Source of the DNA: Candidatus Spongiisociaceae bacterium
GTDB lineage: Bacteria > Actinomycetota > Acidimicrobiia > Spongiisociales > Spongiisociaceae
Direction: 5' to 3'
Length of the DNA stretch: 64,000 bases
NCBI GenBank assembly: GCA_965243835.1
Contig: OZ251578.1
Coordinates: forward strand, 1,760,303-1,824,302
The notes beneath the pieces are model-generated. The model did no database searches and had not been told where the DNA came from. It saw nothing but the letters and a program-made list of their open reading frames with translations. Shown piece by piece: positions 2,265 through 64,000 of this stretch. Position 1 is the stretch's first letter, and each line of letters opens with the position of its first letter. The position numbers and the translations under genes were made by a program.

Positions 2265-3047
2265 TTACCCGGTGGCCCCCCGTTCTTTTGGGGGCAGACT
2301 CTTCTCTACTATCTCATATAACTCATCATATCCAAACAAATCAAAACTAACAGTCCCCGCCCGCAAATTAAGAGCCTTCATCAACTGATTCGGGTACGGT
2401 TTACCAAACAAATAATCATGTTTCTCTATGGCCAAATCATACACGGCCGCCACTAGAATAGGGTTGGCGGCACTGTAAGTACGATCCGTTAATTGATGAT
2501 ATAACTCCACATTATCAGCCATAAATTCCAACAACTGTTCCTTTGAATATTTGGAGTATTCCGCCGCTCTATAGGCGGTTTCATATAGCCACCATAACCG
2601 GGCGGCGGCATTGGAAATACGAGGTCTAGTATTCCACAGCCAGTGATTTTTGACAAAATTAATAGGAAGAGCTTTCTTTAAATGGCTAGTGCTCCAACGA
2701 ACTGTTACATAAGGTGAGATGGCAAAGCAATTGATAGATGTCCATAACGTATCTCCAGCCGCCTCTGCCGGGCTTATACCGGAAACGGCCTGACGTACCA
2801 GCGGAGCATAGTGAGCATCGGAACCCGGACCAGACTGCTCAATTTGATTTAGAGGATCCAACGGTGCCTCCAATTCAATCTTCTTGGAGTGATATGGAGA
2901 ATCTCCGTTTTTGTCAGCCCTCTCCTCAATGCGTTTCCGGAGTTCATCCATATCACCTTTCAAGAAAAGGCCGGGGGTCTCCTCAGCCAGTTCATCTACA
3001 ATCAAGTAGCCATCTTCATTGAGCATAGGGATACTATTCAGCATCAT
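2265..3047 (-). CDS. uncharacterized 260-aa protein, paralog of 550..1344
   Basis: Same conserved blocks as 550..1344; start overlaps the stop of the upstream gene by 14 nt (operon). Confidence 0.6.
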   Translation of the reverse strand: MMLNSIPMLNEDGYLIVDELAEETPGLFLKGDMDELRKRIEERADKNGDSPYHSKKIELEAPLDPLNQIEQSGPGSDAHYAPLVRQAVSGISPAEAAGDTLWTSINCFAISPYVTVRWSTSHLKKALPINFVKNHWLWNTRPRISNAAARLWWLYETAYRAAEYSKYSKEQLLEFMADNVELYHQLTDRTYSAANPILVAAVYDLAIEKHDYLFGKPYPNQLMKALNLRAGTVSFDLFGYDELYEIVEKSLPPKERGATG

Positions 3048-3936: not shown

Positions 3937-3938
3937 TA

Positions 3939-5801
3939 CTACTCCTCAAAAAATCTTATGGAAAAAGTTTTATCTGTGACAGGTTCCCTGGTAAAAATTT
4001 CTATTTCCCGGCGTTCGCCTGGTTCCGCATCGGGCAAGGAAAATAAATTGTCATCTACAACTTGCAGCGATTCGCCTCCTACGCTGGCTTTCCTAATACC
4101 CATAGGATACTTCGTCCCATCCTCACCCACCGACAACATTTCTATCTTGGTTGGAGTAGTTTCGGGTTGCTCAAAAGCAACAATAACCGAATGTGCATCA
4201 CTTGATCCTTTTCTAAAACGAACTCCCACAAAACTTTGGGGCGTGGCTGTGGCTTGCCGCTTTTCACCTTTCTTGCCCTTTTCCTGTCCCAGTCTATAAG
4301 TACTTGTGTCACCATTACCCGGAGTTTCAGTCGGTTGTTTATCCCGTTTTTTGGATTTTGTCTTTTTGGGTCTCCATGGTGCTCTAAGACTCTGAACAGG
4401 GTCTGTAACGATTGGATCGCCTTGGTTATCGGATTGATCCCGTCCTGTATCTTGGGATTCATCGCCCTCAATAGGAAGAAACTCCGCGAGCTCGTCGACG
4501 CTTTCTGAATCTGAGCCGGGATCGGGCTCTACAAAGTCCTTAATCACCTGATAACACCACCTGCCTATTTCATCAAACAACCCCTTGGCCTTTTTGCGCA
4601 ATTTTTCATCGCTAATATTGTCTATGCTTATTTGATCGTGCCTCGGAGATTCTGCCTGCCTCAACAGGGCTTCCCCTTTAGACTTGCATTCTATGATAGC
4701 GGTAAACCCCCACCAATGAGTAGGAAGCATAGCTAACTTAGGGAATATATATTTCCGGTCGGTTGTGATAAGCATACCAGCATCTCGCACTAATGCTATT
4801 TTCTTGTTACGAGTTTCCTTATCTACTTCAATACGAATTGATATTTCTCCTACATCATCCGCAGTAAAACGATCCACCGGTGCTTCTAAAGAAACTCGTA
4901 TATAATTCCGAACCATTTTATCTTGGATATCCTGTAAATAGTGCTTGTATGTCTTCACATTTATTTTACTATCGCCTACATTTACTTCCAATCCGCCATG
5001 TATAATGGCATGAAAATAATTACTCAGAACAATATCTATACCCCGTTTTTCCCATTCCTCTAACCCATCAGTAAAAGAATATCCAGGTATGTGGATAGCT
5101 GTACCAGGTTTCTTTAATTTTAGGTCAACGGGGACTTTATCGTTCTTAAGGGAATCGAATCTCTTCCCAAGATATCCAACCCTTTTGTATGGAGTACCGC
5201 TTTTGCCTTCGTGAGATACTAATATGGCCTTCCCCATAAAGCGTTGTCGAAGATGTCCGTTCTCCAAAAAGGCGGTGTTATACAATACTGTTCGTAAGGG
5301 AGTAGCAACAAAAGAGGCGAATTTTCCTATACCAAAAGAACCGGCGGCGTCTTTTTGCGGTTTGTTTGTCAGCCCCTCGCCCTTAGTAAGAGTTTCCCAA
5401 AATGTCGGTCGGTTATTATTCTTTATGTCCGTAGCGCCGGTTGTATTACTATCCGTTATACACAAGGATTCAATTGGGCTACCCCCCCCCCCCAATAAAC
5501 CCTTTGCTTTTTCAAAACCGGGGAGATATTTTTCTTCATTGTGGGGAGAATCTATCGCATACTGAATATGCCGCGCCAAACTATCTGTCGCCAACAAAAC
5601 GCCGTCTAACATCTTGTGCTGAAAATTGACTACCACGGGACCGGTGCCGTCCGGGGCTTCGGCATCCAAAGAGTTCTGAATAGCCTCCCTGATGATGGAC
5701 GTTTCGCGGTCGCCGGTAAAATGGGCCATGCCGGGATGGGCCGGCCCCTCGATAGCACCGGCCTGGTTCTCTTCGAACTTCCATTTGAGGTTTTGGCTCA
5801 T
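3939..5801 (-). CDS. GHKL-superfamily (histidine-kinase/MORC-like) ATPase domain protein, about 620 aa; first gene of the operon
   Basis: N box REAIQNSLDA and G box GSFGIGKFASF of Bergerat-fold ATPases. Start assigned to ATG at 5801 (MSQNLKWKF); an alternative start is at 5840. Contains an in-frame G12 tract. Confidence 0.65.
   Translation of the reverse strand: MSQNLKWKFEENQAGAIEGPAHPGMAHFTGDRETSIIREAIQNSLDAEAPDGTGPVVVNFQHKMLDGVLLATDSLARHIQYAIDSPHNEEKYLPGFEKAKGLLGGGGSPIESLCITDSNTTGATDIKNNNRPTFWETLTKGEGLTNKPQKDAAGSFGIGKFASFVATPLRTVLYNTAFLENGHLRQRFMGKAILVSHEGKSGTPYKRVGYLGKRFDSLKNDKVPVDLKLKKPGTAIHIPGYSFTDGLEEWEKRGIDIVLSNYFHAIIHGGLEVNVGDSKINVKTYKHYLQDIQDKMVRNYIRVSLEAPVDRFTADDVGEISIRIEVDKETRNKKIALVRDAGMLITTDRKYIFPKLAMLPTHWWGFTAIIECKSKGEALLRQAESPRHDQISIDNISDEKLRKKAKGLFDEIGRWCYQVIKDFVEPDPGSDSESVDELAEFLPIEGDESQDTGRDQSDNQGDPIVTDPVQSLRAPWRPKKTKSKKRDKQPTETPGNGDTSTYRLGQEKGKKGEKRQATATPQSFVGVRFRKGSSDAHSVIVAFEQPETTPTKIEMLSVGEDGTKYPMGIRKASVGGESLQVVDDNLFSLPDAEPGERREIEIFTREPVTDKTFSIRFFEE
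5482..5493 (-). repeat. homopolymeric tract, C12 on + strand = G12 in the coding strand of the GHKL ATPase gene (encodes GGGG; currently in frame)
   Basis: 12 consecutive C at 5482-5493 inside an otherwise AT-rich gene. Confidence 0.9.
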
Positions 5802-5866
5802 AGCGGGCCCTATATTACACTGGTCGGGCGGGGAAGGCAAATCCGCCGTCCCGCCGAGGAGGACTG

Positions 5867-6856
5867 ATGACCAAATTCGCTTATTTCTGCGGCCATGAGC
5901 AGTGGCACCCGGAGCAACTGGTGGAGCATGCGGTGCGGGCCGAGCAGGCCGGGTTCGACATGCTGGTGGTGTCGGAGCACTTTCACCCCTGGGTGGACGA
6001 CGCCTCGGCCTCCGGCTTCGCCTACGCCACCATCGCCGCCATGGCCCAGGCCACCGAGCGGGTGGAGTTCACCACCGGGGTGACCACCCCCCTGTGGCGA
6101 TTCCATCCCGCCTTGGTCGCCCAGGCGGCCGCCACCCTGGACCGGCTGAGCGGCGGACGGTTCCGCCTGGGAGTGGGCACCGGCGAGAACATCAACGAAG
6201 GTCCGCTCGGATACCGCTTCCCCAAGTATGCGGAACGGGCCGCCCGAATGGACGAGGCCCTGCAAATAATGCGGCGGATGCTGGATGGGGAGAAACTCAC
6301 CTTCGAGGGCGAATATTACGTAACCGACAGGGCCAAACTCTACTCCCCTCCCCTGTCCCGGGTGCCGATCCTGATGGCGGCGGGCGGCCCCAAGTCGGCC
6401 CGGCTGGCCGGTCGGCGGGCGGATGGGGTGATCGTGTCGGTGAAAGACCCGGCGGACGCCATGGAGCGGGTAATCGGCCCCGTCCGGGAGGAGGCCGCCG
6501 CCCACGGCCGCCCCGCCCCCACCGTGCTCACCTCCCGGTGGGCGATCCTGGCCGGAGACGATGACGAGGCGTGGCAAGCGTTGTTTTCCTGGCGTGGCCT
6601 GCGGGCCCCGGGACGTCTGGAGGCGGTGGATCCGATGACCCTGCGGGAGCGGGCCGACGAGTTGCCCCGCTCCGAGGTGCTGGGCCGCTACGCCCGCACC
6701 GCCAACGCCGCCGACATCATCGACGTCTACACGCCGCTACTCAAAGACATCGACGCCGATGTGATAACCATTCAGATGGCCGCCGTCGACCAGGAAGCCC
6801 TCATCGATCTGCTGGGCGCCGAAGTGCTGCCCGCCCTACGCGCCGCCGCCTCGTAA
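5867..6856 (+). CDS. LLM-class F420-dependent oxidoreductase (luciferase-like monooxygenase family)
   Basis: Luciferase-like TIM-barrel motifs (FDMLVVSEHF, RFRLGVGTGE) typical of F420-dependent G6PD-like LLM enzymes. Confidence 0.75.
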   Translation: MTKFAYFCGHEQWHPEQLVEHAVRAEQAGFDMLVVSEHFHPWVDDASASGFAYATIAAMAQATERVEFTTGVTTPLWRFHPALVAQAAATLDRLSGGRFRLGVGTGENINEGPLGYRFPKYAERAARMDEALQIMRRMLDGEKLTFEGEYYVTDRAKLYSPPLSRVPILMAAGGPKSARLAGRRADGVIVSVKDPADAMERVIGPVREEAAAHGRPAPTVLTSRWAILAGDDDEAWQALFSWRGLRAPGRLEAVDPMTLRERADELPRSEVLGRYARTANAADIIDVYTPLLKDIDADVITIQMAAVDQEALIDLLGAEVLPALRAAAS

Positions 6857-9000
6857 ACCCGCCCGGAGATAAGCCCCGATCCCCCCGCACTCCCCAAAAA
6901 CGACCCCCTTGAATTTGCCGCCCACCTGAATTAAACTGAAAAGGCGGAGCAAAACTGAGGGCGGGCGGGTGGGGGGTGGGCGGGACCCCGCCTTCCGAAA
7001 AATTTTTCCGAGAACGCGAAAAAAATACCTATTTTCCCCAATATCTCCGTCAGGGGAACGCCCACCCGCGCTGGCGCCTCCCCCGGCCCCCGTCTTTGTC
7101 ACACCACCGGATTAAGGTAGGTAACCATGATGACATACGACACCCAACTAGCCCATCAACTCCTCCGAGCGGGCGCCGACGACCCGCACGCCGAGTCCGC
7201 CCGCAACAAGAGAAAGCCACCCGCTTCCTAATAACCCCGCCCGAGAAGAAGCACCGCTCCCCCGCACTCCCCAAAACGACCCCCTTGAATTTGTCACACT
7301 AGGCCATTAAAATTAAAGGCGGAGCAAAACTGGGGGCGGGCGGGTCCCCGCCTTCCGAAAATTATTTCCGAGAACGCGAAAAAAATACTTATTCTCCCCA
7401 ATATTTTCCGTCCGAGGAACGCCCACCCGCGCAGTGCCGTCCCTGCCTCCGTCTTTGACACCCCCGGATTAAGGTAGGCAACCATGACATACAACACCCA
7501 ACTAACCCACCAACTCCTCCGAGCGGGCACCGGCGACCCGCACGCCGCGTTCCACCCCCAACCAGAGGAAGCCACCCGCTTCCTAATAACCCCGCCCGAT
7601 GAGAAACACCGCTCCCCCCACACTCCCCAAAAACGACCCCCTTGAATTTGTCACACTCGGCCATTAAAATTAAAGACGGAGCAAAACTGGGGGCGGGCGG
7701 GCGGGGGGTGGGCGGGTCCCCGCCTTCCGAAAAATTTTTCCGAGAACGCGAAAAAAATACTTATATTTATTTCCGTCAGGGGAAACGCCCGCCGCGCCGG
7801 GTCCCGCGCCTTGGCCCCCGTCTTTGTCACACCACCGGATCAAGGTAGGCAACCATGACATACAACACCCAACTAACCCACCAACTCCTCCGAGCGGGCG
7901 CCGACGACCCGCACGCCGAGTTCCACCCGCAACAAGAGAAAGCCACCCGCTTCCTAATAACCCCACCCGAGGAGAAACACCGCTCCCCCCACACTCCCCA
8001 AAACGACCCCCTTGAATTTACCGCCCGCCTGAATTAAACTGAAAAGGCGGAGCAAAACTGGGGGCGGGCGGGACCCCGCCTTCCGAAAAATTTTTCCGAG
8101 AACGCGAAAAAAATACCTATTTCCCCCAATATCTCCGTCAGAGAAACGCCCACCCGCGCTGGCACCTCCCCCGGCCCCCGTCTTTGTCACACCACCGGAT
8201 CAAGGTAGGCAACCATGACATACGACACCCAACTAACCCATCAACTGCTCCAAGCGGGCGCCAGCGACCCGCACGCCGAGTTCCACCCGCAACAAGAGAA
8301 AGCCACCCGCTTCCTAATAACCCCACCCGAGGAGAAACACCGCTCCCCCCACACTCCCCAAAAACGACCCCCTTGAATTTGTCACACTCGGCCATTAAAT
8401 TAAAAAGGCGGAGCAAAACTGGGGGCGGGCGGGCGGGGGGTGGGCGGGTCCCCGCCCTCCGAAAATTTTTTTCCGAGAACGCGAAAAAAATACTTATTTT
8501 TCCCAATATTTCCGTCAGGGGAACGCCTGCCGCGCCGGGTCCCGCGCCTTGACCGCCATCTTTGTCACACCACCGGATCAAGGTAGGCAACCACAACATA
8601 CGACACCCAACTAGCCCATCAACTCCTCCGAGCGGGCACCAACGACCCGCACGCCGCGTTCCACCCGCAACAGGAGAAAGCCACCCGCTTCCTAATAACC
8701 CCACCCGAGGAGAAACACCGCTCCCCCCACACTCCCCAAAAACGACCCCCTTGAATTTGTCACACTCGGCCATTAAATTAAAAAGGCGGAGCAAAACTGG
8801 GGGCGGGCGGGCGGGGGGTGGGCGGGTCCCCGCCCTCCGAAAATTTTTTTCCGAGAACGCGAAAAAAATACTTATTTTTCCCAATATTTCCGTCAGGGGA
8901 ACGCCTGCCGCGCCGGGTCCCGCGCCTTGACCGCCATCTTTGTCACACCACCGGATTAAGGTAGGTAACCATGATGACATACGACACCCAACTAGCCCAT
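6857..9000 (+). repeat. tandem array A: about 5.8 direct copies of a 355-380-bp cassette. Each copy holds a promoter-like element, a G-rich leader, an A5T5 palindrome, an RBS, and the start codon plus about 30 codons of the downstream helicase gene
   Basis: Motif cactccccaaaa(a)cgacccccttgaatttg recurs at about 6887, 7263, 7621, 7991, 8351 and 8731. ATGACATAC start-like segments recur at 7127, 7484, 7855, 8215 and (ATG lost) 8590; the real start is at 8971. Two unit subtypes alternate 1,2,2,1,2,2, implying a higher-order duplication of about 1.1 kb. Copies differ by several percent. Confidence 0.9.
8751..8779 (+). promoter_or_regulatory. sigma70-like promoter candidate (TTGAAT-N17-TAAATT) of the last cassette, about 190 nt upstream of the helicase start; equivalent hexamers are in every cassette
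   Basis: -35 TTGAAT at 8751-8756, 17-nt spacer, -10 TAAATT at 8774-8779. The same architecture (TTGAAT-N17-TAAAAT) is at 7642-7670 and in the other units. Confidence 0.4.
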
Positions 9001-11067
9001 CAACTGCTCCGGGCGGGGGCCGGCGACCCGCGCGCCGGGTTCCGCCCCCAACAGGAGGAGGCCATTCGTTCCCTGGTCGGGGGCCGGGCCCCGAACCGGC
9101 TGTTGCTGGTTCAGAAAACCGGATGGGGCAAAAGCTTCGTCTACTTCATCGCCACCAAGCTCCTGCGCCGACAGGGGAAGGGGCCGGTCCTGCTCATTTC
9201 GCCCCTGTTGGCGTTGATGCGCAACCAGATCGCGATGGCGGAGCGTTTGGGAGTGGCGGCCGCCGCCATCCACTCCGGCAACAAACCGGAATGGAAGAGC
9301 GTGGTCGAGCGACTGTCCCGGAACGAAATCGACATTCTGCTGATCTCGCCCGAACGGTTGGCCAATCAAAAATTTAGGGAAGACGTGTATGCGCCCCACC
9401 TAAGCCAACCAGGTATGTGGGTGGTGGACGAAGCCCACTGCATATCGGACTGGGGGCATGACTTCCGACCGGATTACCGGCGGATCGAGGGCCTGGTCCG
9501 CGGCCTGCCCCCCAATGTTCCGTTGCTGGCCACCACCGCCACCGCCAATGACCGGGTGGTGGACGACCTAGAGCAAATACTGGGGCCGGATCTGCGAATT
9601 ATGCGGGGCGACCTGGACCGGCCGTCCCTGCGTCTGCAAACCATCGCCATGCCCTCCCCCCGGGATCGCTTGGCCTGGTTGGCGGAGAATGTTCCGCAAC
9701 TGCCCGGCAACGGCGTGATTTACACCTTGACCGTCCGGGATGCGAAGCGGGTGGCCCGGTGGTTGCAAAGTTGCGGAGTGGATGTCCGCGCCTACACCGG
9801 CTCCACCGACCCGGCGGAAAGGCCGGTTCTGGAAAATGCCCTGCTGGACAATCGGCTGAAAGCCTTGGCGGCCACCTCCGCCTTGGGCATGGGTTTCGAC
9901 AAACCGGATTTGGGGTTCGTCATTCACTATCAGGCCCCCGGATCGGTGATCGCCTACTACCAGCAGGTGGGCCGGGCGGGGCGCGGCATCGGCGAGGCCC
10001 GCGGTGTGCTGTTGAGCGGCGTCGAGGACCAGGACATCATCGATTACTTCCGCGAAAACGCCTTCCCGACCCGGGCGGAAGTGAAGGAAATGCTGGCCGC
10101 TCTTAGGAGAGCGAAGGACGGGCTGTCGTTCTACGACCTGGAAACCAGGGTCAACCTCAACAGCTACCGCTTGCGCCAAACCCTGAAATTGATGGAGTTG
10201 GAGACCCCGGCTCCGTTGGCCCGGCAGGATTCGGTCTATCAACTGACCCCGCATCGTCTGGGAGCGGGCTTCTGGGAGCGCGTGGAACGTCTCAACCGAC
10301 TGCGCCGGGAGGAGCAGGCTGAAATGCGGGAATACGTCGGGCTTGCATCGGGGCATATGAACTTTCTCATCAAGGCCCTCAACGGCTCCCCCGCCGCCGG
10401 CGATGACCCGCCGACCCTGCCGCCCCTTCCCACCACCATTTCCGGAAAACACCGGGTGGCCGCCGAGGATTTCCAAAAACGCGACTGGTATAGCATCGCG
10501 CCGCGTAAAAAATGGCCGAGGGGCGGCCTCCCCCGACTCGGCGTCCGCGGCCCCATCCCAGAAGACCGCAAATACCAACGGGGACGGGCCCTTAGTTTGT
10601 GGGGATTCGGCGCTCTCGGTCGGCTGGTAAAACAGGGAAAATACCAAGACGCCCGCTTCCCGGATCAATTGGTGGAAGATTGCCGGCGAATGTTCCGCGA
10701 CTGGAACCCGCAACCAACGCCGCGCTGGGTCGCCTGCGTGCCTTCACACAGCCATCCCGACCTGGTACCCGATTTCGCCCGGCGGCTGGCGGACGCCCTG
10801 GGTCTCCCCTTCCGCTCCGTACTGGAAAAAACCGGCAAAAACCGTCCCGCCCAAAAAGTTATGAACAACAGCAGGATGAGGGCCGACAACGCGGACGGAG
10901 CGTTCCGGGTAAACGACCGCCTGATGGGCCCGGAATACGGGGAACCGGTACTGCTGGTGGATGACGTTGTGAATTCAAGATGGACGATGACCGTGTGCGC
11001 CTGGCTGTTGCTGACGCAGGGAAGCGGCGAGGTGTTTCCGTTGGCCTTGGCGCAGGCGGGGGACTAA
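8971..11067 (+). CDS. RecQ-family DNA helicase fused to a C-terminal ComFC/GntX-like phosphoribosyltransferase (PRTase) domain
   Basis: RecQ motifs: PQQEEAI, TGWGKSF (Walker A), DEAHCISDWGHDFRPDY, LATTATA, YQQVGRAGRGIG. C-terminal about 130 aa carries ComFC-like motifs (NADGAFRV ... VLLVDDVVNS), characteristic of type-I PRTase/ComF proteins. Confidence 0.8.
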   Translation: MMTYDTQLAHQLLRAGAGDPRAGFRPQQEEAIRSLVGGRAPNRLLLVQKTGWGKSFVYFIATKLLRRQGKGPVLLISPLLALMRNQIAMAERLGVAAAAIHSGNKPEWKSVVERLSRNEIDILLISPERLANQKFREDVYAPHLSQPGMWVVDEAHCISDWGHDFRPDYRRIEGLVRGLPPNVPLLATTATANDRVVDDLEQILGPDLRIMRGDLDRPSLRLQTIAMPSPRDRLAWLAENVPQLPGNGVIYTLTVRDAKRVARWLQSCGVDVRAYTGSTDPAERPVLENALLDNRLKALAATSALGMGFDKPDLGFVIHYQAPGSVIAYYQQVGRAGRGIGEARGVLLSGVEDQDIIDYFRENAFPTRAEVKEMLAALRRAKDGLSFYDLETRVNLNSYRLRQTLKLMELETPAPLARQDSVYQLTPHRLGAGFWERVERLNRLRREEQAEMREYVGLASGHMNFLIKALNGSPAAGDDPPTLPPLPTTISGKHRVAAEDFQKRDWYSIAPRKKWPRGGLPRLGVRGPIPEDRKYQRGRALSLWGFGALGRLVKQGKYQDARFPDQLVEDCRRMFRDWNPQPTPRWVACVPSHSHPDLVPDFARRLADALGLPFRSVLEKTGKNRPAQKVMNNSRMRADNADGAFRVNDRLMGPEYGEPVLLVDDVVNSRWTMTVCAWLLLTQGSGEVFPLALAQAGD

Positions 11068-12125
11068 TGACCTGGCCGCTTCTGCCCAATACACAGGCGA
11101 TTCTGCTTTTGACCGCGCCCCTGCTGGCGGGAGGGGAGGGCGACGTAGCCGAACGGTTAAACTTGCGGGGATACCGAAAACTGGAAGAACATCTGCGCGG
11201 TCGGGGGCGCGATCTAGCCGACCTGTTGCTGGAGGACCCGGAGGAGGTTCTGGGGGAAAGCCCGCCCTGCGACATCGGGAGAATCAAGGACCTGCTACGG
11301 AGGGGAGGGCGTCTGGCGGCGGCCGTCGACCATTGGAGCACGCGCGCCATCTGGGTGATCAGCCGCTTCGACGAGGAATACCCGCGCCGCTTCCGCACTC
11401 GCCTCGCCGGCTCGGCCCCTCCTCTGCTGTACGGGTGCGGGGACCGGTCGCTCCTCAACCGGGGGGGATTGGCGGTGGTGGGGCCGCGCCAAGCGGACGA
11501 AGACGCCCTGAAATTCGCCCAGTGGACGGGAGGCTTGACCGCCCGGGCCGGGTTTCCTTTGATTTCCGGCGGGGCGCGGGGTGTGGACCGGGCGGCTATG
11601 ACCGGGGCCATGGAAGCGGGCGGGCAGGCGGTGGGGGTGCTGGCGGGTAAACTGGAAAAAGAAATAATGACCCGCGACCGGCGGGATTGGATTCTGGAGG
11701 AGCAGATGTTGATGGTCTCCCCCTACGACCCCGGGGCCGGTTTTCACCGCGGGACTGCTATGGGACGCAACAAGTTGATCTACAACCTGGCCGACGCCGC
11801 CCTGGCGGTGGAAGCGGACCCCAAACGGGGCGGAACCCGCGCCGGGGCGATGAACCAACTGCAGGCCAACCGCAAACAACCCGACCGACAGGTTCCCATA
11901 TACGTACGGGACATCCCCAGCCCCGGCCTGGACTCCCTGCGGGAAAACGGAGCGCAAACCTGGCCCGACCCGGAAACAGCCGACGAACTAAAAAACATCC
12001 TGGACAGCGCAACGGTATTTGACTCTCCGGACCACTCCCAACCTCGCCCACCTGTCATCCCGGCTGATGAGCTATTTCCCGAAACCAGTCAACAGCAACC
12101 ATTGCCCCTCGGTGCCGGAGGGTAA
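11067..12125 (+). CDS. dprA: DprA/Smf-family protein (DNA-processing protein A; SLOG/Rossmann fold), translationally coupled to the helicase gene
   Basis: Start ATG overlaps helicase stop (TAATG at 11065-11069). DprA SAM-like N-domain (EYPRRF..APPLLYGCGD) and Rossmann core (LAVVGPRQA, ISGGARGVDRAAMTGAMEAGGQAVGVLAGKL, SPYDPGAGFHRGTAMGRNKLIYNLADAALAVEA). Confidence 0.7.
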   Translation: MTWPLLPNTQAILLLTAPLLAGGEGDVAERLNLRGYRKLEEHLRGRGRDLADLLLEDPEEVLGESPPCDIGRIKDLLRRGGRLAAAVDHWSTRAIWVISRFDEEYPRRFRTRLAGSAPPLLYGCGDRSLLNRGGLAVVGPRQADEDALKFAQWTGGLTARAGFPLISGGARGVDRAAMTGAMEAGGQAVGVLAGKLEKEIMTRDRRDWILEEQMLMVSPYDPGAGFHRGTAMGRNKLIYNLADAALAVEADPKRGGTRAGAMNQLQANRKQPDRQVPIYVRDIPSPGLDSLRENGAQTWPDPETADELKNILDSATVFDSPDHSQPRPPVIPADELFPETSQQQPLPLGAGG

Positions 12126-12560
12126 CTACTCCTCCGCATCATCAATATTGTTAGGGTTCATAGACTCCGCCAACTGCTCTACTTGGTTTATCAATAATTC
12201 AATCTCGGGAACAGTAGGTACCAAATCATATTCGTGATGGTGACAGGCCCGACTTAGGGCTACCCAAGCGGAGTGGGCATCTTCGGATGTCACAGTATCA
12301 ACTGCAACCCTACCGTCTCGGGCTAATTGCTTAAGACAAGCAAGTTGCGTAAACCGGCTTGTATTCTTCATATAGCGATAATAGTAATGGTCATTCCAAA
12401 GTCTGTCCAGTGTCGCTTCAAGAACTTGGCGAGTCAGCAAAGCCGCCGCCCGATGCCATTCGCCTCGCGGCCCATCAGTATGGTTGAGTAAACCCCGAGC
12501 GAGGTTTAGTAGGTCAAGGGTCATAACGACGTAATCTTTCGGCCAAACTTTGACAATCAT
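12126..12560 (-). CDS. small His-rich hypothetical protein (144 aa), downstream partner of the Rad50/SMC-like ATPase
   Basis: AT-rich ORF overlapping the upstream gene by 47 nt; no recognizable motif. Confidence 0.45.
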   Translation of the reverse strand: MIVKVWPKDYVVMTLDLLNLARGLLNHTDGPRGEWHRAAALLTRQVLEATLDRLWNDHYYYRYMKNTSRFTQLACLKQLARDGRVAVDTVTSEDAHSAWVALSRACHHHEYDLVPTVPEIELLINQVEQLAESMNPNNIDDAEE

Positions 12561-14922
12561 TAATTAGATTAGCCAAATCACCAGAATATTTACTATGAGT
12601 ACCTTTATTAGTATCGCTGAATACCTCTGCAAATCTCTTCCCCCATTTACTGGAGATTTTACCAAACACTTTGTCGCTTTTATTAATACTATCAAATAAC
12701 GCTACAGAGGCTTTCTGACTTAATTTCTTGGCCTCGAATAACTCTTGTTCAATCACCTGATGAGTTTTACCTTTATCCAGCCATCGTCGCCATACTGCTT
12801 CCACACAGGCGGCTTCTAATCCGCTACGACAAAACCCTGGAATAACCCGCCTTGCTATATCCTCTAGCATATCATCATCCTTCAAAATGGACCGTGCCTC
12901 AAAAAAATATTGAATAACCGGATCGCGCTTTTCCGCAATAGTAACTTTCGATTTTACCGATCTCCTAACCTCTAGACAATGGTGTTCAATATCTAAATGA
13001 CGTAAAGACTCCGGGAGTCGATTGTCGTGAGTGAACACAATTAGTTGACGACTCTTGGCAACCTTGGCGAATACTCTGGCTAGTCCATCAACCCGAGCAG
13101 GGTCCATAGATTGTATCGGATCGTCAATAACCAAAAAGCGAAAGGGACTAGCGGGAAGCATTACCCGGGGAAAGAAAATGGACAAAGCCAAACTGTTTAT
13201 TTCTCCTTGACTAACCACAGACAAGGCATCTGTCTTAATATCATCCACTTCCACCCCAAGGGCCACTCTACGTTTAGTGCGACTACCAGTTAGTTGAACG
13301 GAAAGTAAATCAACGTTGCTTTCCAAACGTAGTTCTTTCCAAATTTCCAAGGCCTGGTTCTCTATAGGAGACCAACGGGTGTTACGTATATTTTCGTTTA
13401 CTTCTTTAAGATATTTTTCTGCCCTTTTTAGGTTAGTAATTTCTGATTGCTCTCTCCTTACTCGACAGGCTTTGTGAACCCAAGGCGAAAGAATAGACAT
13501 AGCCGCTAGCCACTTTTCTTCTCTATCAGAGTACAACTGACGAGCTTGTTCAATAATTTTATTTGCTTCACTTTCGACCGAGGAGTATAATGTAAGCAAG
13601 TGTTCATCTATTTCACTTTTATCGTCAGGCAACGAACTCCACTTTTTCCAAATAGAAACCAGCGAACCTATCTCTATAGTTTCAGTGTCGGACAATAGAG
13701 GAGGTTCTATCAAAATCTCAACCTCCTTTATTACGTTTTCCAGATTACTTTTGGCATCCCTATATTTTTGAGAGCTTGCTTTCAGTCTTTCTATCTGCTC
13801 TTCTACTTTGGTAACCCAACTACTATCCAAAATACCTTCTTCGCAAACTGGACAACGATTGTTCTCGTGTGTGCCATAATATTTCAAAGCCAGATTTAAT
13901 ATACTCATTAAGTTTTCGGCGTGCTCTGCTTCCGTACCAGATAAGTTAGACCAATCTGTATATGCCTTGTTCAGTTTTTTTGCTATTTTCAATACTTGCT
14001 CTTGATTTGGAACCTTGATATTTATAAGAGTTTGTAAATCCTGATGATAAGTAACTGGCTCCGATTGAAGACTTTTTATAATATCCAAGTCCCAATTTCG
14101 TTTCTTGACAGCTTCCACAACTTTTGTTGCACGCGGGTCTTCTAGTTGCTCAAACTGGGGAAGAATATTATTTTTTCGTTCTGCCTCTACCTGGTTTGCC
14201 AGTTTTTCTCGTGCTAATCGGGTATTAGCTAAAGCTTTCATCGCTTGGGCAATAATACCAATACCGAGTACTTTGCTGAGAGTGTCATGCAGGGATGACG
14301 GACTATTTTCAATGATGCCAAGTTCCTTATACGATAAAATGGGGCGATATAAATCAAGTGGTTCTTTCCAACCTATTCCATCTAGATCGGAAATTTCCTT
14401 TCCATGATGTTGCGCACTGCATTTTCCTTCTTCCAGTTCGGAATTTTGGGACCAAGTGCACTCTACCATAGTTGGTTTATTCATTCCTTCTACTTGAAAT
14501 CTGGCGGATATTTTGGTATTATTGCCCTGATGGAGATTCCGCCAGCCTTGCTTCCAAACTACCGCTTTTTTGCTTTCCCAGCGATAGCTATCCCCGGTTA
14601 ACAATACTTCCAATCCTTCTGCGAAGCTGGACTTGCCGGAGCCGTTTCTGCCTACAACGACCGTAAGACCCGGGCCGGGAGGTATCTCCAATGTGGCCTC
14701 CGGTCCGATACCGCGAAACCCGGATACCGTTATGTCCTGTAGGTAAACAGGCGGAACCAGCTCTCCGTTGTCCGACATCGTATCGGGTCCATCTACGTAT
14801 TCATCAGTTAAGACGCGCTCCACGTCATCCTCACCCCTGAGGGCGGCTAGCACCAGGCTTATAATCTGCTCGTCTTTAGTAAGTTTGGCGAGCTCTTGTT
14901 CTACTTCTTGATAGAGGCCCAT
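12514..14922 (-). CDS. Rad50/SbcC/SMC-like ABC ATPase with a central CxxC zinc hook (802 aa)
   Basis: Walker [13 protein letters not shown] signature VSQGE, Walker B RFLVIDDP, H-loop IVFTHD, long coiled-coil middle with NRCPVCEEG zinc-hook motif. AT-rich relative to flanks. RBS AGGAGGGG 5 nt before ATG at 14922. Confidence 0.7.
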   Translation of the reverse strand: MGLYQEVEQELAKLTKDEQIISLVLAALRGEDDVERVLTDEYVDGPDTMSDNGELVPPVYLQDITVSGFRGIGPEATLEIPPGPGLTVVVGRNGSGKSSFAEGLEVLLTGDSYRWESKKAVVWKQGWRNLHQGNNTKISARFQVEGMNKPTMVECTWSQNSELEEGKCSAQHHGKEISDLDGIGWKEPLDLYRPILSYKELGIIENSPSSLHDTLSKVLGIGIIAQAMKALANTRLAREKLANQVEAERKNNILPQFEQLEDPRATKVVEAVKKRNWDLDIIKSLQSEPVTYHQDLQTLINIKVPNQEQVLKIAKKLNKAYTDWSNLSGTEAEHAENLMSILNLALKYYGTHENNRCPVCEEGILDSSWVTKVEEQIERLKASSQKYRDAKSNLENVIKEVEILIEPPLLSDTETIEIGSLVSIWKKWSSLPDDKSEIDEHLLTLYSSVESEANKIIEQARQLYSDREEKWLAAMSILSPWVHKACRVRREQSEITNLKRAEKYLKEVNENIRNTRWSPIENQALEIWKELRLESNVDLLSVQLTGSRTKRRVALGVEVDDIKTDALSVVSQGEINSLALSIFFPRVMLPASPFRFLVIDDPIQSMDPARVDGLARVFAKVAKSRQLIVFTHDNRLPESLRHLDIEHHCLEVRRSVKSKVTIAEKRDPVIQYFFEARSILKDDDMLEDIARRVIPGFCRSGLEAACVEAVWRRWLDKGKTHQVIEQELFEAKKLSQKASVALFDSINKSDKVFGKISSKWGKRFAEVFSDTNKGTHSKYSGDLANLINDCQSLAERLRRYDP

Positions 14923-14975
14923 TTACCCCTCCTTGGAGATGCCGTCCCATTCAGTATACCGCACTGATGTTCGGC

Positions 14976-15482
14976 TCAGGCGGGGAGGGTTCCGGTTTTC
15001 AAAAGGTTACGGCGGCGGGCGGGGTCGGACAGGCGGCAACGGCGCCATAGCCAAAGCAGGTAGGCCAGGCCCGCCGCCTCCTGGAGCAGGAGCGGCCAGC
15101 GGAAATTTGTCCAGTCGTTGGGGACCCCGACCGGGAACTCCCAGCCGAAAAAGGGCCAGAGCAGGGTGTCGCGGAGCGTCCACATTCCGTCCAGCAACAG
15201 GTGAAACATCACTCCCACCGCCAACGCCATCCATCGTCTGCGGGACGGCCTCCCGCGCCGGGTCGCAATCAACACCGTCACCAGCAGAACGGCGAAGAAC
15301 AGCAACGTGTGGCCGAAGATGCGGCCCGTCCCGAACGCGCCCGCCCCGAAAACCAAACCCGTGGGCTTGTCCAACAGGTCGGGCAAAACGGCCCCCGCCA
15401 GCAGGAAACGCACATCCACCGCCGGGTCCCGGAACAGGTAACGGAACAGGAACAGCGACCCCCCCAGATGCCAAAACAGCAT
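14976..15482 (-). CDS. membrane-bound metal-dependent hydrolase (YdjM/DUF457-like)
   Basis: Several TM segments, conserved His/Asp pattern similar to LexA-regulon YdjM-type inner-membrane hydrolases. Confidence 0.4.
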   Translation of the reverse strand: MLFWHLGGSLFLFRYLFRDPAVDVRFLLAGAVLPDLLDKPTGLVFGAGAFGTGRIFGHTLLFFAVLLVTVLIATRRGRPSRRRWMALAVGVMFHLLLDGMWTLRDTLLWPFFGWEFPVGVPNDWTNFRWPLLLQEAAGLAYLLWLWRRCRLSDPARRRNLLKTGTLPA

Positions 15483-60367: not shown

Positions 60368-61551
60368 CCTTCCTCCGCAAGGTCCGTCTGGAAAACCTGC
60401 TTTCCTTCGGCCCCGCCGGCCAGGAACTGGATCTGGGCCCGCTGAACGTGCTGATCGGCCGCAACGGCTCCGGCAAATCCAACCTGCCCGCCGCCCTGGG
60501 CATATTGGCCGCCGCCCCGCGCAACCTGCCGACGCCCATCCGCGCCGCAGGGGGAACGAGCGAATGGCTTTGGAAAGGGGCCGACCAGCCGCCCGTTGCG
60601 ACCGTGGAGGCGACGGTTGAGTACCCGGAGGGCGCTTCCCCCCTCATATATCGACTTTCTTTCACCGCCAAAGGGCACCGGTTCACTTTGGTAGACGAAG
60701 CCATCGAAAACGCCAACCCGTCCTCCGGCGAAAGCTCGCCTTCCTTCTATTATCGTTATCAGGGAGGCCAACCGATTTTGAACGTAAGAACCGAAGAAGG
60801 GTTTTGGCGGGAAAAAACCGTTGACCCTGAATATATGAACAGCGAAACCTCGGTCCTTCGCAATTATATAGACCCCTTACATTACCCGCAAATAACATAT
60901 CTAGGTGAACGGTTTCCAAAAATACTCATATACCCACAGTGGAGCTTTAGTCATTACTCGCCGCCTCGTCAACCCGCCTCAACTGACTCGCTTCCCTATG
61001 TATTGCTAGATGATGCTTCGAACCTCGCTTTGGTGATGAACAACTTGCTTAATAAGCCTACAATTCGAAGGGAAATACTTGAGAAAGTCAGGAATTTTGA
61101 TCCTGACATTGAAGACATTGTAACCAATGTCGATGGTCGCAGTGTACAGATATATACTCATGAAAAAGGTTTAAACCATCCAATATCGGCTATGCATTTT
61201 GGGGATGGGCTCCTCCAATACTTATGCCTGTTGGCTGTCCTTTATAAACCTGAATCTCCGCCTCTTATCTGTCTTTCCGAACCGGAATCCAACCTGCACC
61301 CAGATATAATACCGGATGTAGCAAAACTTCTGTTAGAGGCTTCCTCACGAAGCCAAATTATCATAACCACTCAATCCGATATTATGGTAGATGCCCTAAC
61401 GGAAACACCCGAATCCATAGTGGTATGTGAAAAATACGATAACTGCACCCAACTACATCGCCTGAGTAGAGAACAGTTGCAACCTTGGCTAGATGAATAC
61501 AGACTAGGTGATTTGTGGATATCCGGTCAAATAGGCGGCAACCGATGGTGA
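60364..61551 (+). CDS. ABC-type AAA_21-family ATPase (abortive-infection/defense-type ATPase, about 395 aa)
   Basis: Walker [10 protein letters not shown], signature-like [15 protein letters not shown], Walker [14 protein letters not shown]; AT-rich 3' two-thirds. Confidence 0.7.
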
Positions 61552-63121
61552 CCACCGGAAAGGAAACAGCAGTTCAAGGGGCTACGACTGGGTATGAGGC
61601 TGAGCTGTGGAAGATGGCGGACAGTCTGCGGGGGAGCATGGACGCCGCCGAGTACAAGCATGTGGTGTTGGGGCTGATCTTTCTCAAGTATGTTTCGGAC
61701 GCGTTCGAGGAACTACACGAACATCTGCAGGGAGTACCCGACGCCGACCCGGAGGACCCGGAGGAATACGTCGCCGAGAGTGTGTTCTGGGTGCCGAGCG
61801 AAGCGCGGTGGGGGCTCTTGCAAGCCGAGGCCAAGCAACCCGACATCGGGCAACTGGTAGATGAAGCGATGGACGCCATCGAACGGGACAACCCCGCCCT
61901 CAAGGATGTGTTGCCCAAAGAGTACGCCCGGCCCGCTTTGGACAAAACACGACTCGGCCAGCTGATTGACCTAATCAGCAACGTCAAAGTGGGCGACGCG
62001 GAGTCGCGTTCCAAGGATGTGCTGGGACGGGTCTACGAATATTTTCTGGCGCAGTTCGCCGGGGCGGAAGGCAAACGGGGCGGCGAGTTCTACACTCCGC
62101 GGTGCGTGGTGAAACTGCTGGTGGAAATGCTGGAACCCTACAACGGCCGAGTGTACGACCCGTGTTGTGGCTCATCGGGAATGTTCGTGCAGTCCATGGA
62201 GTTCATCCGCTCGCACGCCACCGGCAACGGGAACGGCGGCCTGGCGGGCGACATTTCCATCTTCGGTCAAGAGTCCAACTACACAACTTGGCGGATGGCG
62301 AAGATGAACCTGGCCATCCGGGGCATCAACGGCCAGATCGAAATCGGCGACACTTTCCACGATGACCGCCACCCCGACCTGAAAGCCGACTTCATCCTGG
62401 CCAACCCCCCGTTCAACATTTCCGACTGGGGCGGCGAACGACTGACCGACGATCAACGCTGGAAATACGGCATCCCACCCAAAAGCAACGCCAACTTCGC
62501 TTGGATGCAACACATAGTCCATCACTTGTCTCCGGGGGGGGGGGTGGGATCGTGCTTGCCAACGGGTCAATGTCGTCCCAGCAGTCCAACGAAGGCGAGA
62601 TACGCAAAAATCTGCTAGAGGCCGATTTGGTGGACTGTATGGTGGCCCTGCCTGGCCAGCTGTTCTACTCCACCCAGATCCCCGCCTGCCTCTGGTTCCT
62701 GTCCCGCAACCGAGGTAACGGACCGTTTCGAGACCGCCGCGGCGAGGTGCTTTTCATAGACGCCCGCCGAATGGGCGTAATGCGAGACCGCACCCATCGC
62801 GAACTTACCAATGATGAGATAAGTCGCATCACCAACACCTACCATGCCTGGCGCGGCGAGACAGACGCAGACGAATTTGCCAATATCCCAGGCTTCTGCT
62901 ATAGTGTACCCATAGAGGAGTTACGCAAACACGATTACGTGTTAACTCCTAGTCGCTACGTAGGAGTGGAGCCTGAAGAGGAGGAGGACGAGCCTTTCGA
63001 AGAAAAAATGACCCGACTAATCAGGCAATGGAATTATCAAACAAGCAAGGCCTTAGATACTAACAAGAAAATCACCAATAACTTAAAAAAGGTAGGATTT
63101 ACCACTGTAAGGGAACTCTAA
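61545..63121 (+). pseudogene. hsdM: type I restriction-modification methyltransferase subunit HsdM, split by a frameshift at a G11 homopolymer (phase-variable or disrupted)
   Basis: Upstream frame carries the HsdM N-domain ([26 protein letters not shown]) and catalytic NPPF. Downstream frame carries [11 protein letters not shown]...[14 protein letters not shown]. The frames switch inside GGGGGGGGGGG at 62534-62544. Confidence 0.8.
62534..62544 (+). repeat. G11 homopolymeric tract inside hsdM (currently out of frame; G12 or G9 would restore the ORF)
   Basis: Direct count of 11 G; reading-frame analysis of the flanking HsdM motifs. Confidence 0.9.
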
Positions 63122-63122: not shown

Positions 63123-63743
63123 ATGGAATGGATATCTATGATTACTTCTTCTCTCATCGCGCTGTCCATCGCAGCTATTACTTGGTTTTTAGTATCTAGT
63201 ATCGAAAAATCTAGAAGAGAGCGGGAGCGATTGCAAGATGAACGGAGGAATCTCTATATGCATATTCTAGAGCCTTATATTATTATATTTGATAATATAA
63301 ATGAACAAACTTCAGATAATGAAATGGACCAACAAACTGGAATACGAACCGAGCTACAAGAATCACTCGATATGATAATATCAACAAATTATCGCAGAAA
63401 AGCCTTTGAACTTGTTCTAATAGGATCTGATAAAACTATTTTATTTTATAATAAACTAATAGAAATAGGACACGCTCTAGACAATAATCGTAATTCTATA
63501 CAAAATATAAGCGAAACAATCGTCATCAAATTTGGCGAATTGCTTTTATCGATAAGAAAAGATTTAGTAGGCAAAAGAACTAAACTAAACGAAATAGAAA
63601 TATTGAAAGGACACATAAAAGATATTAATATTCATATAGAAATATATAAGAAAAAATGGTCTATAATATACAAGATGCTTAGAAAACCTTCCTACGTATT
63701 AAGACCCAGAAAAATAGTTAATGAAAACGAAAGAAACAAATGA
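63123..63743 (+). CDS. hypothetical AT-rich protein (206 aa, N-terminal TM helix) inserted between hsdM and hsdS
   Basis: Very low GC, Lys/Ile/Asn-rich; start 2 nt after the hsdM stop; stop overlaps the hsdS start (ATGA at 63740-63743). Confidence 0.5.
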   Translation: MEWISMITSSLIALSIAAITWFLVSSIEKSRRERERLQDERRNLYMHILEPYIIIFDNINEQTSDNEMDQQTGIRTELQESLDMIISTNYRRKAFELVLIGSDKTILFYNKLIEIGHALDNNRNSIQNISETIVIKFGELLLSIRKDLVGKRTKLNEIEILKGHIKDINIHIEIYKKKWSIIYKMLRKPSYVLRPRKIVNENERNK

Positions 63744-64000
63744 AAAAATACATGAAGCAAGCCACTTTAGGTAGCATAGCACCATTCACTTATGGTAAAG
63801 GCTTACTCAAATCTAAGAGAAACCACTTCGGTAGGGTACCGGTATATGGTTCAAATGGTATCATCGATTATCATGATACGCCGCTAACAGATGGACCCAC
63901 AATTATAATAGGTCGCAAAGGTACTGTAGGAGCTGTGCATTTTTCTCGTATCCCTTGCTGGCCAATTGACACAACATTTTACATAACAAGCTCAGATATT
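63740..64000 (+). CDS. hsdS: type I restriction-modification specificity subunit HsdS, N-terminal part (continues beyond window)
   Basis: N-terminal TRD-like sequence (GRVPVYGSNGIIDYHDTPLTDGPTIIIGRKGTVGAVHF..WPIDTTFYI) typical of HsdS. Confidence 0.7.
   Translation, partial: MKKYMKQATLGSIAPFTYGKGLLKSKRNHFGRVPVYGSNGIIDYHDTPLTDGPTIIIGRKGTVGAVHFSRIPCWPIDTTFYITSSDI

What the first reader, a model, noticed from the sequence alone, without database searches (positions are those of the whole stretch)
62534..62544. hsdM interrupted by a frameshift exactly at a G11 homopolymer: a phase-variable (currently OFF) type I methyltransferase, or a sequencing error
Canonical HsdM motifs continue across the tract but in two different frames (…[14 protein letters not shown] | [11 protein letters not shown]…). 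G12 or G9 would give an intact about 525-aa HsdM. Poly-G/C slippage in hsd and mod genes is an established phase-variation mechanism in several pathogens. Finding it in a high-GC environmental-type genome, together with a second long G tract in another defense gene (5482-5493), suggests contingency-locus behaviour of the defense islands. With hsdM OFF the downstream hsdS would be unexpressed or non-functional.
Basis: seen in the sequence. Interest (0 to 1): 0.65.

Follow-up and report, generated by a model that had tools for sequence, protein, structure and literature searches.

The report
Slippery poly-G switch in hsdM
A run of eleven G's breaks the reading frame of a DNA-methylase gene of a type I restriction system, and related strains carry the same run at 11, 12 or 13 G's in an otherwise well-preserved gene, so it is most likely a known kind of reversible on/off mutational switch, here read in the off position.

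Summary
G11 at 62534-62544 splits a type I hsdM into two frames. G12 gives a 525-aa protein and G9 a 524-aa one; 120 ungapped homologs show G12 is the family-length ON state.

The phase-variation reading is supported by comparison, though not at read level.
- Seven syntenic assemblies from related strains (88-96% nt identity) were read at this codon site: G11 (two assemblies, one allele; OFF), G12 (ON), G13 (OFF), a second tract allele CCC-G12-CGGGG (OFF), and no tract (two, ON).
- A further protein fragment has a G13-type frame.
- 71 distant orthologs never exceed G7 here.
- The OFF alleles are not decaying. The untranslated 3' part keeps dN/dS of about 0.16 in the repaired frame, with no stops. 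hsdR is intact in all relatives.
- The tract is the only frame-breaking indel inside a conserved gene in 10 kb aligned to a relative.

The second tract (5482-5493, in PDC-M33A, in frame here) is G11 and G15, both OFF, in two orthologs. Nine of 15 homologs with poly-Gly at the site are truncated there.

SSR-bearing hsdM genes and the pglX G tract of Streptomyces are established precedents, so this is a new member of a known kind. A one-base consensus error in this assembly cannot be excluded without reads.

The parts
62534..62544 (+). G11 homopolymer, the slippage-prone tract. In the ON (G12) form it encodes the loop SPGGGGG, between the helix ...MQHIVHHL and the strand IVLANGS of the methyltransferase fold.
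   Evidence: for the tract. Homolog alignment. Gap-free alignment to solved HsdM 3KHK.
61545..62618 (+). hsdM 5' part as read in the G11 state: a 357-aa product. It holds the HsdM_N domain, the SAM-binding motifs and the NPPF motif, then 22 out-of-frame residues and a stop at 62616-62618.
   Evidence: An identical 357-aa protein, P0121, is on record from a 3,175,414-bp contig.
62545..63121 (+). hsdM 3' part in the other frame ([10 protein letters not shown]... to stop), open to the natural stop. Its last ~110 nt (after 63012) are low-GC and unrelated to the relatives' tails.
   Evidence: dN/dS in the repaired frame is 0.16 against L084 and 0.08 against L001.
60379..61551 (+). AAA_21 / HEC-01A-type ATPase gene immediately upstream. 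Its stop overlaps the hsdM start (ATGGTGA). It is conserved at this position in all syntenic relatives.
   Evidence: AAA_21, 1.7e-26; HEC-01A, 2.8e-144.
63123..63743 (+). 206-aa low-GC ORF embedded between hsdM and hsdS. It has no Pfam hit and a weak AbiN match, and overlaps the hsdS start (ATGA).
63740..64000 (+). 5' end of hsdS (specificity subunit). It runs off the window, so hsdR is not visible here.
   Evidence: Methylase_S; Specificity_I, 1.9e-22. In relatives hsdS is followed by an intact 1037-aa hsdR.
5482..5493 (-). Second long tract: G12 on the coding strand of a PDC-M33A homolog (gene about 3939-5801/5840, - strand), in frame here (LLGGGGSP).
   Evidence: Orthologs carry G11 and G15, both out of frame. 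Truncated homologs are shown.

Best explanation
The G tract is a hypermutable contingency repeat inside the methyltransferase gene of a type I restriction-modification system.

Proposed mechanism (inferred). Slipped-strand mispairing during replication adds or removes G's. G12 (or G9/G15) gives full-length HsdM. G11, G10 and G13 end translation about 25 to 55 codons after the tract (stops taken from the translations). Type I enzymes need HsdM both for methylation (M2S1) and for restriction (R2M2S1). An OFF tract therefore silences the whole system without self-restriction, and a later slip can turn it back on.

In this genome's consensus the switch reads OFF (G11).

What is shown: the tract, the frameshift, the ON length, between-strain length variation at the same site, and the lack of decay in OFF alleles.

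What is inferred: reversibility within a lineage, the switching rate, and the phenotypic consequence (loss of restriction and methylation).
For: 1. The frameshift falls exactly at the tract, and G12 restores a 525-aa HsdM whose loop length equals that of 120 of 120 homologs.

2. Syntenic relatives (recA-cinA-miaB-352aa-AAA_21-hsdM-orf-hsdS-hsdR-DUF1828-ftsK), at 88-96% nt identity, carry the tract at the same codons:
- L084 and L085: G11, OFF
- L001: G12, ON
- L083: G13, OFF
- L086: CCC-G12-CGGGG, OFF
- protein P0193: G13-type frame
- L002 and L087: no tract, ON
.

3. The tract is derived. 71 orthologs from other phyla have at most G7 at the site and the consensus [AS]PxGxAG.

4. There is no decay. 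Window versus L084, both G11, shows 45 synonymous and 3 nonsynonymous changes upstream (omega 0.017) and 21 and 13 downstream in the repaired frame (omega 0.16). OFF-OFF pairs are no more relaxed than ON-ON pairs (0.15-0.20). The downstream frame is open in all alleles. hsdR is 1037 aa and intact in all six relatives, with omega 0.15-0.24.

5. In 10 kb aligned to L001, the tract is the only frame-breaking indel inside a conserved gene, so the assembly is not riddled with homopolymer errors.

6. A second defence gene shows the same pattern. PDC-M33A has G12 ON here, G11 OFF in a hifiasm circular contig, and G15 OFF in another metagenome. Nine of 15 homologs with poly-Gly at the site are truncated there, against 1 of about 100 without it.

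7. In 142 kb of related loci, the only G/C runs of 8 or more are these two tracts.

8. Precedent exists. Atack et al. count mononucleotide tracts of 9 or more as phase-variable and find SSRs in 2% of hsdM genes (PMC7383803). A G tract in pglX switches Pgl in the high-GC Streptomyces coelicolor at 1e-2 to 1e-4 (PMC4365076).
Against: - No reads were available, so within-population length heterogeneity and reversibility are not demonstrated.
- Three assemblies (the window, L084 and L085) share the same OFF length G11. That could also mean a stably inherited frameshift rather than rapid switching.
- Only 1 of 6-7 tract-bearing alleles is ON. This is compatible with random length (one third in frame), but also with selection for loss.
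- Rampant recombination in this locus could import selected sequence and mask decay.
- A G11 run is not improbable under dinucleotide shuffling.
- Conservation of four synonymous sites between two genomes is not significant on its own.
Confidence: 0.7

Rival explanations
1. Consensus or sequencing error in this assembly. The true length here is G12 and hsdM is intact. Long homopolymers are the classic indel-error site of long-read, and to a lesser degree short-read, platforms.
For: - The error needed is a single base in an 11-12 nt homopolymer.
- The closest ON allele (L001) is exactly G12.
- The gene shows no other lesion.
- The source is a 3.18-Mb contig, so it is probably a long-read assembly (inference).
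Against: - G11 recurs in two further independent assemblies of a 96%-identical strain (L084, L085).
- Other relatives are off in the opposite direction (G13), or by two bases (L086).
- No other homopolymer frameshift appears in 10 kb of conserved genes.
- The equally long G12 in PDC-M33A was read in frame in the same assembly.
Confidence: 0.13
2. Irreversible inactivation. The tract is merely a mutational weak spot where the type I system has been lost (a young pseudogene), possibly under selection to shed restriction, with no adaptive switching.
For: - Five of six distinct tract-bearing alleles are OFF.
- The same G11 occurs in strains 4% diverged.
- The hsdS and tail modules are being swapped, so the locus is in flux.
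Against: - The downstream part of hsdM, and hsdR, show purifying selection equal to ON lineages, with no second lesion in any OFF allele.
- A dS of about 0.23 between two G11 alleles would give a dead gene ample time to accumulate stops.
- The tract has persisted uninterrupted across lineages.
Confidence: 0.1
3. Rescue at the expression level. Transcriptional slippage on the G run, or -1 ribosomal frameshifting on G GGG GGG, restores some full-length HsdM from G11 DNA, so the gene is functional despite the genomic frameshift.
For: - A -1 shift or a +1 G in the mRNA within the run would yield exactly the G12 protein (reading).
- Purifying selection persists downstream of the frameshift in OFF alleles.
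- A hairpin is predicted directly after the run, with z = -2.4.
Against: - Different alleles would need opposite corrections: -1 for G11, and +1 or -2 for G13 and L086.
- An ON allele and tract-less alleles exist.
- The hairpin has no spacer, and its sequence is fixed by conserved codons, so it is uninformative.
- From my own knowledge, not checked here: G-only slippery sites are poor frameshift sites.
Confidence: 0.06

Closest known systems
SSR-containing, putatively phase-variable type I hsdM genes (Atack et al., FASEB J 2019/2020, PMC7383803). Examples are Haemophilus influenzae hsdM with CGAGA[n] and Mannheimia haemolytica hsdM with ACAGC[n].
   Same: - A simple repeat lies inside the hsdM ORF, with a unit not divisible by 3 and a length above the survey's 9-nt mononucleotide threshold.
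- Length differs between strains of an otherwise conserved gene.
- The predicted outcome is ON/OFF of methylation and restriction.
   Different: - The repeat here is a mononucleotide G tract rather than a pentanucleotide.
- It lies two thirds into the gene (codon ~333 of 525), inside the catalytic fold. The survey found most hsdM SSRs in the 5' region.
- The host is an uncultured high-GC bacterium known only from metagenomes, not a cultured pathogen.
- No switching or methylome data exist.
The G tract in pglX of the Pgl (BREX-type) phage-defence system of Streptomyces coelicolor (Sumby and Smith 2003, as cited in PMC4365076).
   Same: - High-GC bacterium.
- A poly-G tract inside the methyltransferase gene of a defence system.
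- Contraction or expansion by one G inactivates the system.
- It is interpreted as easing selection on phage and host.
   Different: - The Pgl tract is shorter (8 G in the ON state) and sits in a BREX-family methyltransferase, not a type I HsdM.
- Switching there was measured experimentally (1e-2 to 1e-4), whereas here it is inferred from comparison.
[quoted passage not shown] Those covered by the Atack survey read here (PMC7383803) are Salmonella hsdS G[12] and Mannheimia hsdS G[n]. Neisseria NgoAV hsdS poly-G and Helicobacter and Campylobacter R-M genes are cited from memory.
   Same: Homopolymer slippage acts as the switch in an R-M gene.
   Different: In hsdS the tract lies between the two TRDs and changes specificity (full-length versus half HsdS). 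Here the methyltransferase itself is truncated, giving a plain ON/OFF.

Membership tests
Type I R-M methyltransferase subunit (HsdM) | HsdM_N domain plus a gamma-class N6-adenine MTase domain with the NPPF motif | tested here: met
   The repaired protein matches PF02384 at 2.7e-107 (profile positions 2-310 of 311) and PF12161 at 4e-26. It matches PDB 3KHK at 3.3e-146, gap-free across the tract. ILANPPFN is present.
Type I R-M methyltransferase subunit (HsdM) | Operon partners hsdS and hsdR | tested here: inconclusive
   The hsdS 5' end lies at 63740-64000, and the window ends before hsdR. All six syntenic relatives have hsdS plus an intact 1037-aa hsdR.
SSR-mediated phase-variable hsd gene (criteria of Atack et al. 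2019) | A mononucleotide tract of 9 nt or more inside the ORF, with a unit not a multiple of 3, so that length changes shift the frame | tested here: met
   G11 lies within the ORF. G9, G12 and G15 are in frame; G10, G11 and G13 are out of frame. The criterion is quoted.
SSR-mediated phase-variable hsd gene (criteria of Atack et al. 2019) | Tract length differs among strains while the gene is otherwise conserved | tested here: met
   G11, G12 and G13, and a G12 variant allele, occur at the same codons in relatives at 88-96% nt identity. Omega is 0.02-0.2.
SSR-mediated phase-variable hsd gene (criteria of Atack et al. 2019) | Reversible high-frequency switching within a clonal population | not testable with these tools
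   No reads or cultures are available. Only consensus assemblies could be compared.
Phasevarion (methylation-controlled regulon) | ON/OFF states differ in genome methylation and in expression of other genes | not testable with these tools
   No methylome or transcriptome data are available. I do not file it as a phasevarion.
Decaying pseudogene | Relaxed selection (omega near 1) and secondary lesions downstream of the first frameshift | tested here: not met
   Downstream omega is 0.08-0.16 in the repaired frame. The frame is open to the natural stop in all OFF alleles. hsdR is intact.
Assembly or sequencing artefact | Not reproducible in independent assemblies, and accompanied by other homopolymer frameshifts | tested here: inconclusive
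   G11 is reproduced in L084 and L085. There is no other frame-breaking indel in conserved genes over 10 kb. Reads for the window's own assembly are unavailable.
PDC-M33 candidate defence system (second tract) | Co-located A, B and C components | tested here: met
   PADLOC matches are PDC-M33A 3.1e-72 (3939-5840), PDC-M33B 1.5e-37 (3034-3936) and PDC-M33C 3.4e-18 (2265-3047), all on the - strand. The same order is found in L088.

The most novel reading that the evidence does not exclude
An uncultured high-GC lineage, probably sponge-associated, uses long poly-G contingency tracts in at least two unrelated defence systems: a type I R-M hsdM and the uncharacterised PDC-M33A. Strains then differ in which defences are ON, a population-level bet-hedging of immunity. 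The PDC-M33A tract is conserved at one site across homologs down to about 48% identity and is frequently OFF. That would make it a phase-variable defence system outside the R-M/BREX methyltransferase world. The hsdM tract also coincides with a recombination junction, where the variable C-terminal/hsdS module is exchanged.
Probability: 0.45. Interest if true: 0.55.

Novelty: new member of a known kind. Interest (0 to 1): 0.4.

Why it matters
Phase-variable R-M systems have been studied almost only in cultured, host-adapted pathogens. Here the same device appears in an uncultured high-GC lineage, with natural alleles in the ON and OFF states across metagenomes. A second, mechanistically unknown defence system carries the same kind of switch.

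If confirmed at read level, this would give a tractable case for asking how symbiont populations trade phage defence against gene flow or autoimmunity.

It is also a practical warning. Automated annotation will call such genes pseudogenes and so under-count active defence systems, as Atack et al. also note for OFF-state genes.

Tried and rejected
- Exact-protein look-ups of three window genes and of P0121, to recover the source contig and its reads or neighbours: nothing on record. The source genome could not be named, and its hsdR could not be seen.
- DNA pattern scans for tract-bearing hsdM in GTDB genomes and JGI metagenomes: no hits. The tract-bearing relatives exist only in the ENA-derived assemblies.
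- The protein-based scan of GTDB genomes returned only orthologs at 78% identity or less. These served as background, not as close relatives.
- G9 as the ON length: rejected, because all 120 homologs have the 7-residue loop that G12 gives.
- Chance occurrence: dinucleotide shuffles do not make G11 improbable. I therefore rely on the run-length distribution and on the comparative data instead.
- Programmed frameshift: the predicted hairpin after the run lies in codons fixed by protein conservation, and different alleles need opposite shifts. It is not pursued further.
- Old pseudogene: rejected by dN/dS.
- Literature searches for sponge-symbiont phase variation and for PDC-M33 found nothing relevant.

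Full report
**Observation**

The window reads ...CATCACTTGTCTCC-GGGGGGGGGGG-TGGGATCGTGCTTGCC..., with the G run at exactly 62534-62544.

The gene starts at ATG 61545, which overlaps the stop of the upstream ATPase gene (ATGGTGA). From there one frame encodes an HsdM N-terminal domain and the N6-adenine methyltransferase motifs through ILANPPFN and ...[16 protein letters not shown]. It then runs out of frame to a stop at 62616-62618, giving a 357-aa product. The sequence [23 protein letters not shown]... continues in another frame to the natural stop at 63119-63121.

Editing the tract in silico gives these products:
- G12: 525 aa, in frame
- G9: 524 aa, in frame
- G15: 526 aa, in frame
- G10, G11 and G13: truncated

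The G12 protein matches Pfam N6_Mtase over essentially the whole profile (2.7e-107) and HsdM_N (4e-26). It aligns without a gap across the tract to the solved HsdM 3KHK.

**Is the tract more than chance?**

Against dinucleotide-preserving shuffles a G11 run is not unusual: 1.58 matches are expected, and 25 of 100 shuffles give 3 or more.

The real sequence, however, avoids long runs. G/C runs of length 5, 6 and 7 occur 247, 77 and 9 times. There are none of 8-10, then one run of 11 and one of 12. Extrapolating the decay gives about 0.1 runs of 11 or more.

Both outliers lie in defence genes, in regions of lower GC than the genome background.

**Which length is ON?**

In 120 homologs (71-89% identity) the stretch HHL-x7-[FI]VLANGS has no gaps. 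The consensus is [AS]P-x-G-x-A-G. G12 gives SPGGGGG, which is 7 residues and keeps both conserved glycines. G9 would be one residue short. G12 is therefore the family-consistent ON state.

**Relatives**

The closest full-length homolog, P0001, has the same SPGGGGG. Its contig L001 is syntenic with the window: recA, cinA, miaB-like, a 352-aa gene, AAA_21 ATPase, hsdM, a small ORF, hsdS, hsdR, DUF1828, ftsK. It is 92.5% identical over 10 kb and carries G12 at the same codons.

Searching with the truncated 357-aa product found the window's own protein (P0121, on a 3.18-Mb contig whose DNA could not be fetched). It also found further truncated HsdM proteins. The tract census is:

| Assembly | nt identity to window | Tract | State |
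|---|---|---|---|
| window | - | G11 | OFF |
| L084 | 96% | G11 | OFF |
| L085 | same allele as L084, neighbouring sample | G11 | OFF |
| L001 | 92.5% | G12 | ON |
| L083 | 91% | G13 | OFF |
| L086 | 88% | CCC-G12-CGGGG (23 nt where 21 or 24 are needed) | OFF |
| P0193 (protein fragment) | - | G13-type frame | OFF |
| L002 | - | no tract (STSGTAG) | ON |
| L087 | - | no tract (STRGVAG) | ON |

In L086 the ON form G10 would read SPGGGAG.

In 71 orthologs from other phyla the longest G run at the site is 7. The tract is therefore a derived feature of this lineage. It has persisted through 4-12% nucleotide divergence and differs in length between strains.

**The OFF alleles are not decaying**

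- Window versus L084, both G11: 45 synonymous and 3 nonsynonymous differences upstream of the tract (omega 0.017), and 21 and 13 downstream in the repaired frame (omega 0.16).
- OFF-OFF pairs (0.14-0.16) are no more relaxed than ON-ON pairs (0.15-0.20).
- The downstream frame is open to its natural stop in every allele.
- hsdR is an intact 1037-aa ORF in all six relatives, with omega 0.15-0.24 irrespective of the hsdM state.
- With dS of about 0.23 between two G11 alleles, a dead gene would be expected to show stops or omega near 1.

**Artefact?**

In the 10-kb alignment to L001, every other indel is a multiple of three, lies outside a conserved gene (judged by mapping the L001 gene calls onto the window), or is a compensated pair 25 nt apart. 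The tract is the only frame-breaking indel inside a conserved gene.

The equally long tract at 5482-5493 was read in frame in the same assembly.

If the truth were G12 everywhere, five of six tract-bearing assemblies would have to be wrong, in both directions and once by two bases. A one-base error in this particular assembly remains possible, and only reads can exclude it. The tract's length variability across the population does not depend on that.

**The second tract**

The gene at about 3939-5801/5840 (- strand) is a PDC-M33A homolog (3.1e-72). It is followed by PDC-M33B and PDC-M33C and by an SspD-like PAPS-reductase-domain gene. Its G12 encodes LLGGGGSP, in frame.

Among its homologs, 15 have poly-Gly at this site, and 9 of those are ORFs that begin right at the site with out-of-frame leaders. 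This holds for only 1 of about 100 homologs that lack the poly-Gly.

DNA of two truncated orthologs confirms it:
- L088, a hifiasm circular 3.0-Mb contig syntenic with the window, has G11. It would need G10 or G13 to be in frame.
- L089 has G15. It would need G14 or G17.

In 142 kb of related loci, the only G/C runs of 8 or more are these two tracts.

**Mechanism**

The steps below are partly established knowledge and partly inference.
- Slipped-strand mispairing changes the G count. This is inferred, and is the established mechanism for such tracts.
- Out-of-frame lengths truncate HsdM inside its catalytic fold. This is shown by translation.
- Type I enzymes need M2S1 for methylation and R2M2S1 for cleavage. 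This is established knowledge. Loss of HsdM therefore turns off both activities safely, and a later slip restores them.
- Whether hsdS and the embedded ORF are still expressed in the OFF state is unknown.

**Rivals**

- Assembly error here: 0.13.
- Irreversible loss at a mutational weak spot: 0.10. This is contradicted by the selection data.
- Expression-level rescue by transcriptional slippage or -1 frameshifting: 0.06. G11 plus a -1 shift would give exactly the G12 protein, and a hairpin is predicted after the run (z = -2.4). However, G13 and the L086 allele need the opposite correction, and the hairpin sequence is fixed by conserved codons.

**Comparison with the known**

Atack et al. surveyed REBASE and counted mononucleotide tracts of 9 or more as phase-variable. 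They found SSRs in 2% of hsdM genes, mostly near the 5' end, including in environmental bacteria. They noted that OFF-state genes are missed by annotation (PMC7383803).

In the high-GC actinomycete Streptomyces coelicolor, a G tract in the defence methyltransferase gene pglX switches the Pgl system at 1e-2 to 1e-4 (PMC4365076).

The present case is the same device. It differs in four ways:
- The tract lies mid-gene, at codon ~333 of 525, inside the catalytic fold.
- The host is known only from metagenomes. I infer, without proof, that the code PANK22-1 refers to the sponge metagenomes of Pankey et al. 2022.
- The tract co-occurs with a second length-variable tract in a non-R-M candidate defence gene.
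- There is no experimental evidence of switching.

I file it as a new member of a known kind and do not claim a phasevarion.

**Other structure in the locus**

Divergence between the window and L001 jumps immediately after the tract. dS rises from 0.23 to 1.7, and identity falls from about 95% to about 78% from roughly 62580 onward. For a few hundred bases the window is closer to the tract-less L002. After 63012 the hsdM tail, the embedded ORF and hsdS are unrelated between relatives, including the 96%-identical L084. The tract therefore sits at the edge of the exchangeable C-terminal/specificity module. Whether that is coincidence is open.

**Verdict**

The phase-variation reading is supported comparatively but is unproven at read level. 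The case is ordinary in kind, and its value lies in its setting and in the second tract. Interest 0.4.

Noticed in passing
window 5482-5493 (- strand gene about 3939-5801); L088 6041-6051; L089 6041-6055: The PDC-M33A homolog carries an in-frame G12. Orthologs carry G11 (in a hifiasm circular contig) and G15, both out of frame. Nine of 15 homologs with poly-Gly at this site are truncated exactly there, against 1 of about 100 without it. This is a possible phase-variable non-R-M defence gene.
   Followed up: yes
window 62545-63121: A divergence and recombination junction lies right after the tract. Window-L001 dS jumps from 0.23 to 1.7 from about 62580. The window is closer to the tract-less L002 for a few hundred bases. 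After 63012 the low-GC hsdM tail, the embedded ORF and hsdS are unrelated among all relatives, even the 96%-identical L084.
   Followed up: partly
window 6876-9064: A 378-bp tandem repeat with 5.9 copies at 85% identity lies between a luciferase-like monooxygenase gene and a PsyrT-like helicase gene. It carries only repeat-derived ORFs, and its function is unknown.
   Followed up: no
window 1423-15000: A dense defence island in low-GC patches. It contains an SspD-like PAPS-reductase-domain gene, PDC-M33 C/B/A, PsyrT (8971-11067, 2.5e-253) with PsyrA/DprA-like (10980-12125), and an 802-aa LmuB-like SMC/AAA ATPase (12514-14922, - strand).
   Followed up: partly
window 63123-63743; L001 11563-12168; L084 11576-12097; L002 8562-10558: The slot between hsdM and hsdS holds a different small gene in each relative. 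Here it is a 206-aa ORF with a weak AbiN match. Elsewhere it is a 201-aa or 173-aa ORF with no family. In L002 it is an NTase_sub_bind gene plus a Polbeta-HsdS fusion.
   Followed up: no
window 60379-61551; L086 9411-10004; L087 1521-2117: An AAA_21 / HEC-01A ATPase gene is translationally coupled to hsdM (ATGGTGA). GC drops from about 0.70 to about 0.40 within the gene. In two relatives a DUF4276 gene is inserted between the ATPase gene and hsdM.
   Followed up: no
L063 13343 (C12), L016 2710 (C10), L029 4685 (G9): These are the only other G/C runs of 9 or more in 948 kb flanking hsdM genes of unrelated genomes. Which genes they fall in was not examined.
   Followed up: no
protein P0165 (361 aa, from a 3.8-Mb contig): A 75%-identical HsdM from another genome is frameshifted in the same loop (...HHLAPRGVAG|SCWPTG...) without a long G tract. 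This may be an independent lesion or a long-read error.
   Followed up: no
window 62545-62640: An RNA hairpin is predicted to start at the first base after the tract (MFE -32.9 kcal/mol, z = -2.4, 3 of 200 shuffles as stable). Its sequence is fixed by conserved codons, so its significance is unclear.
   Followed up: partly
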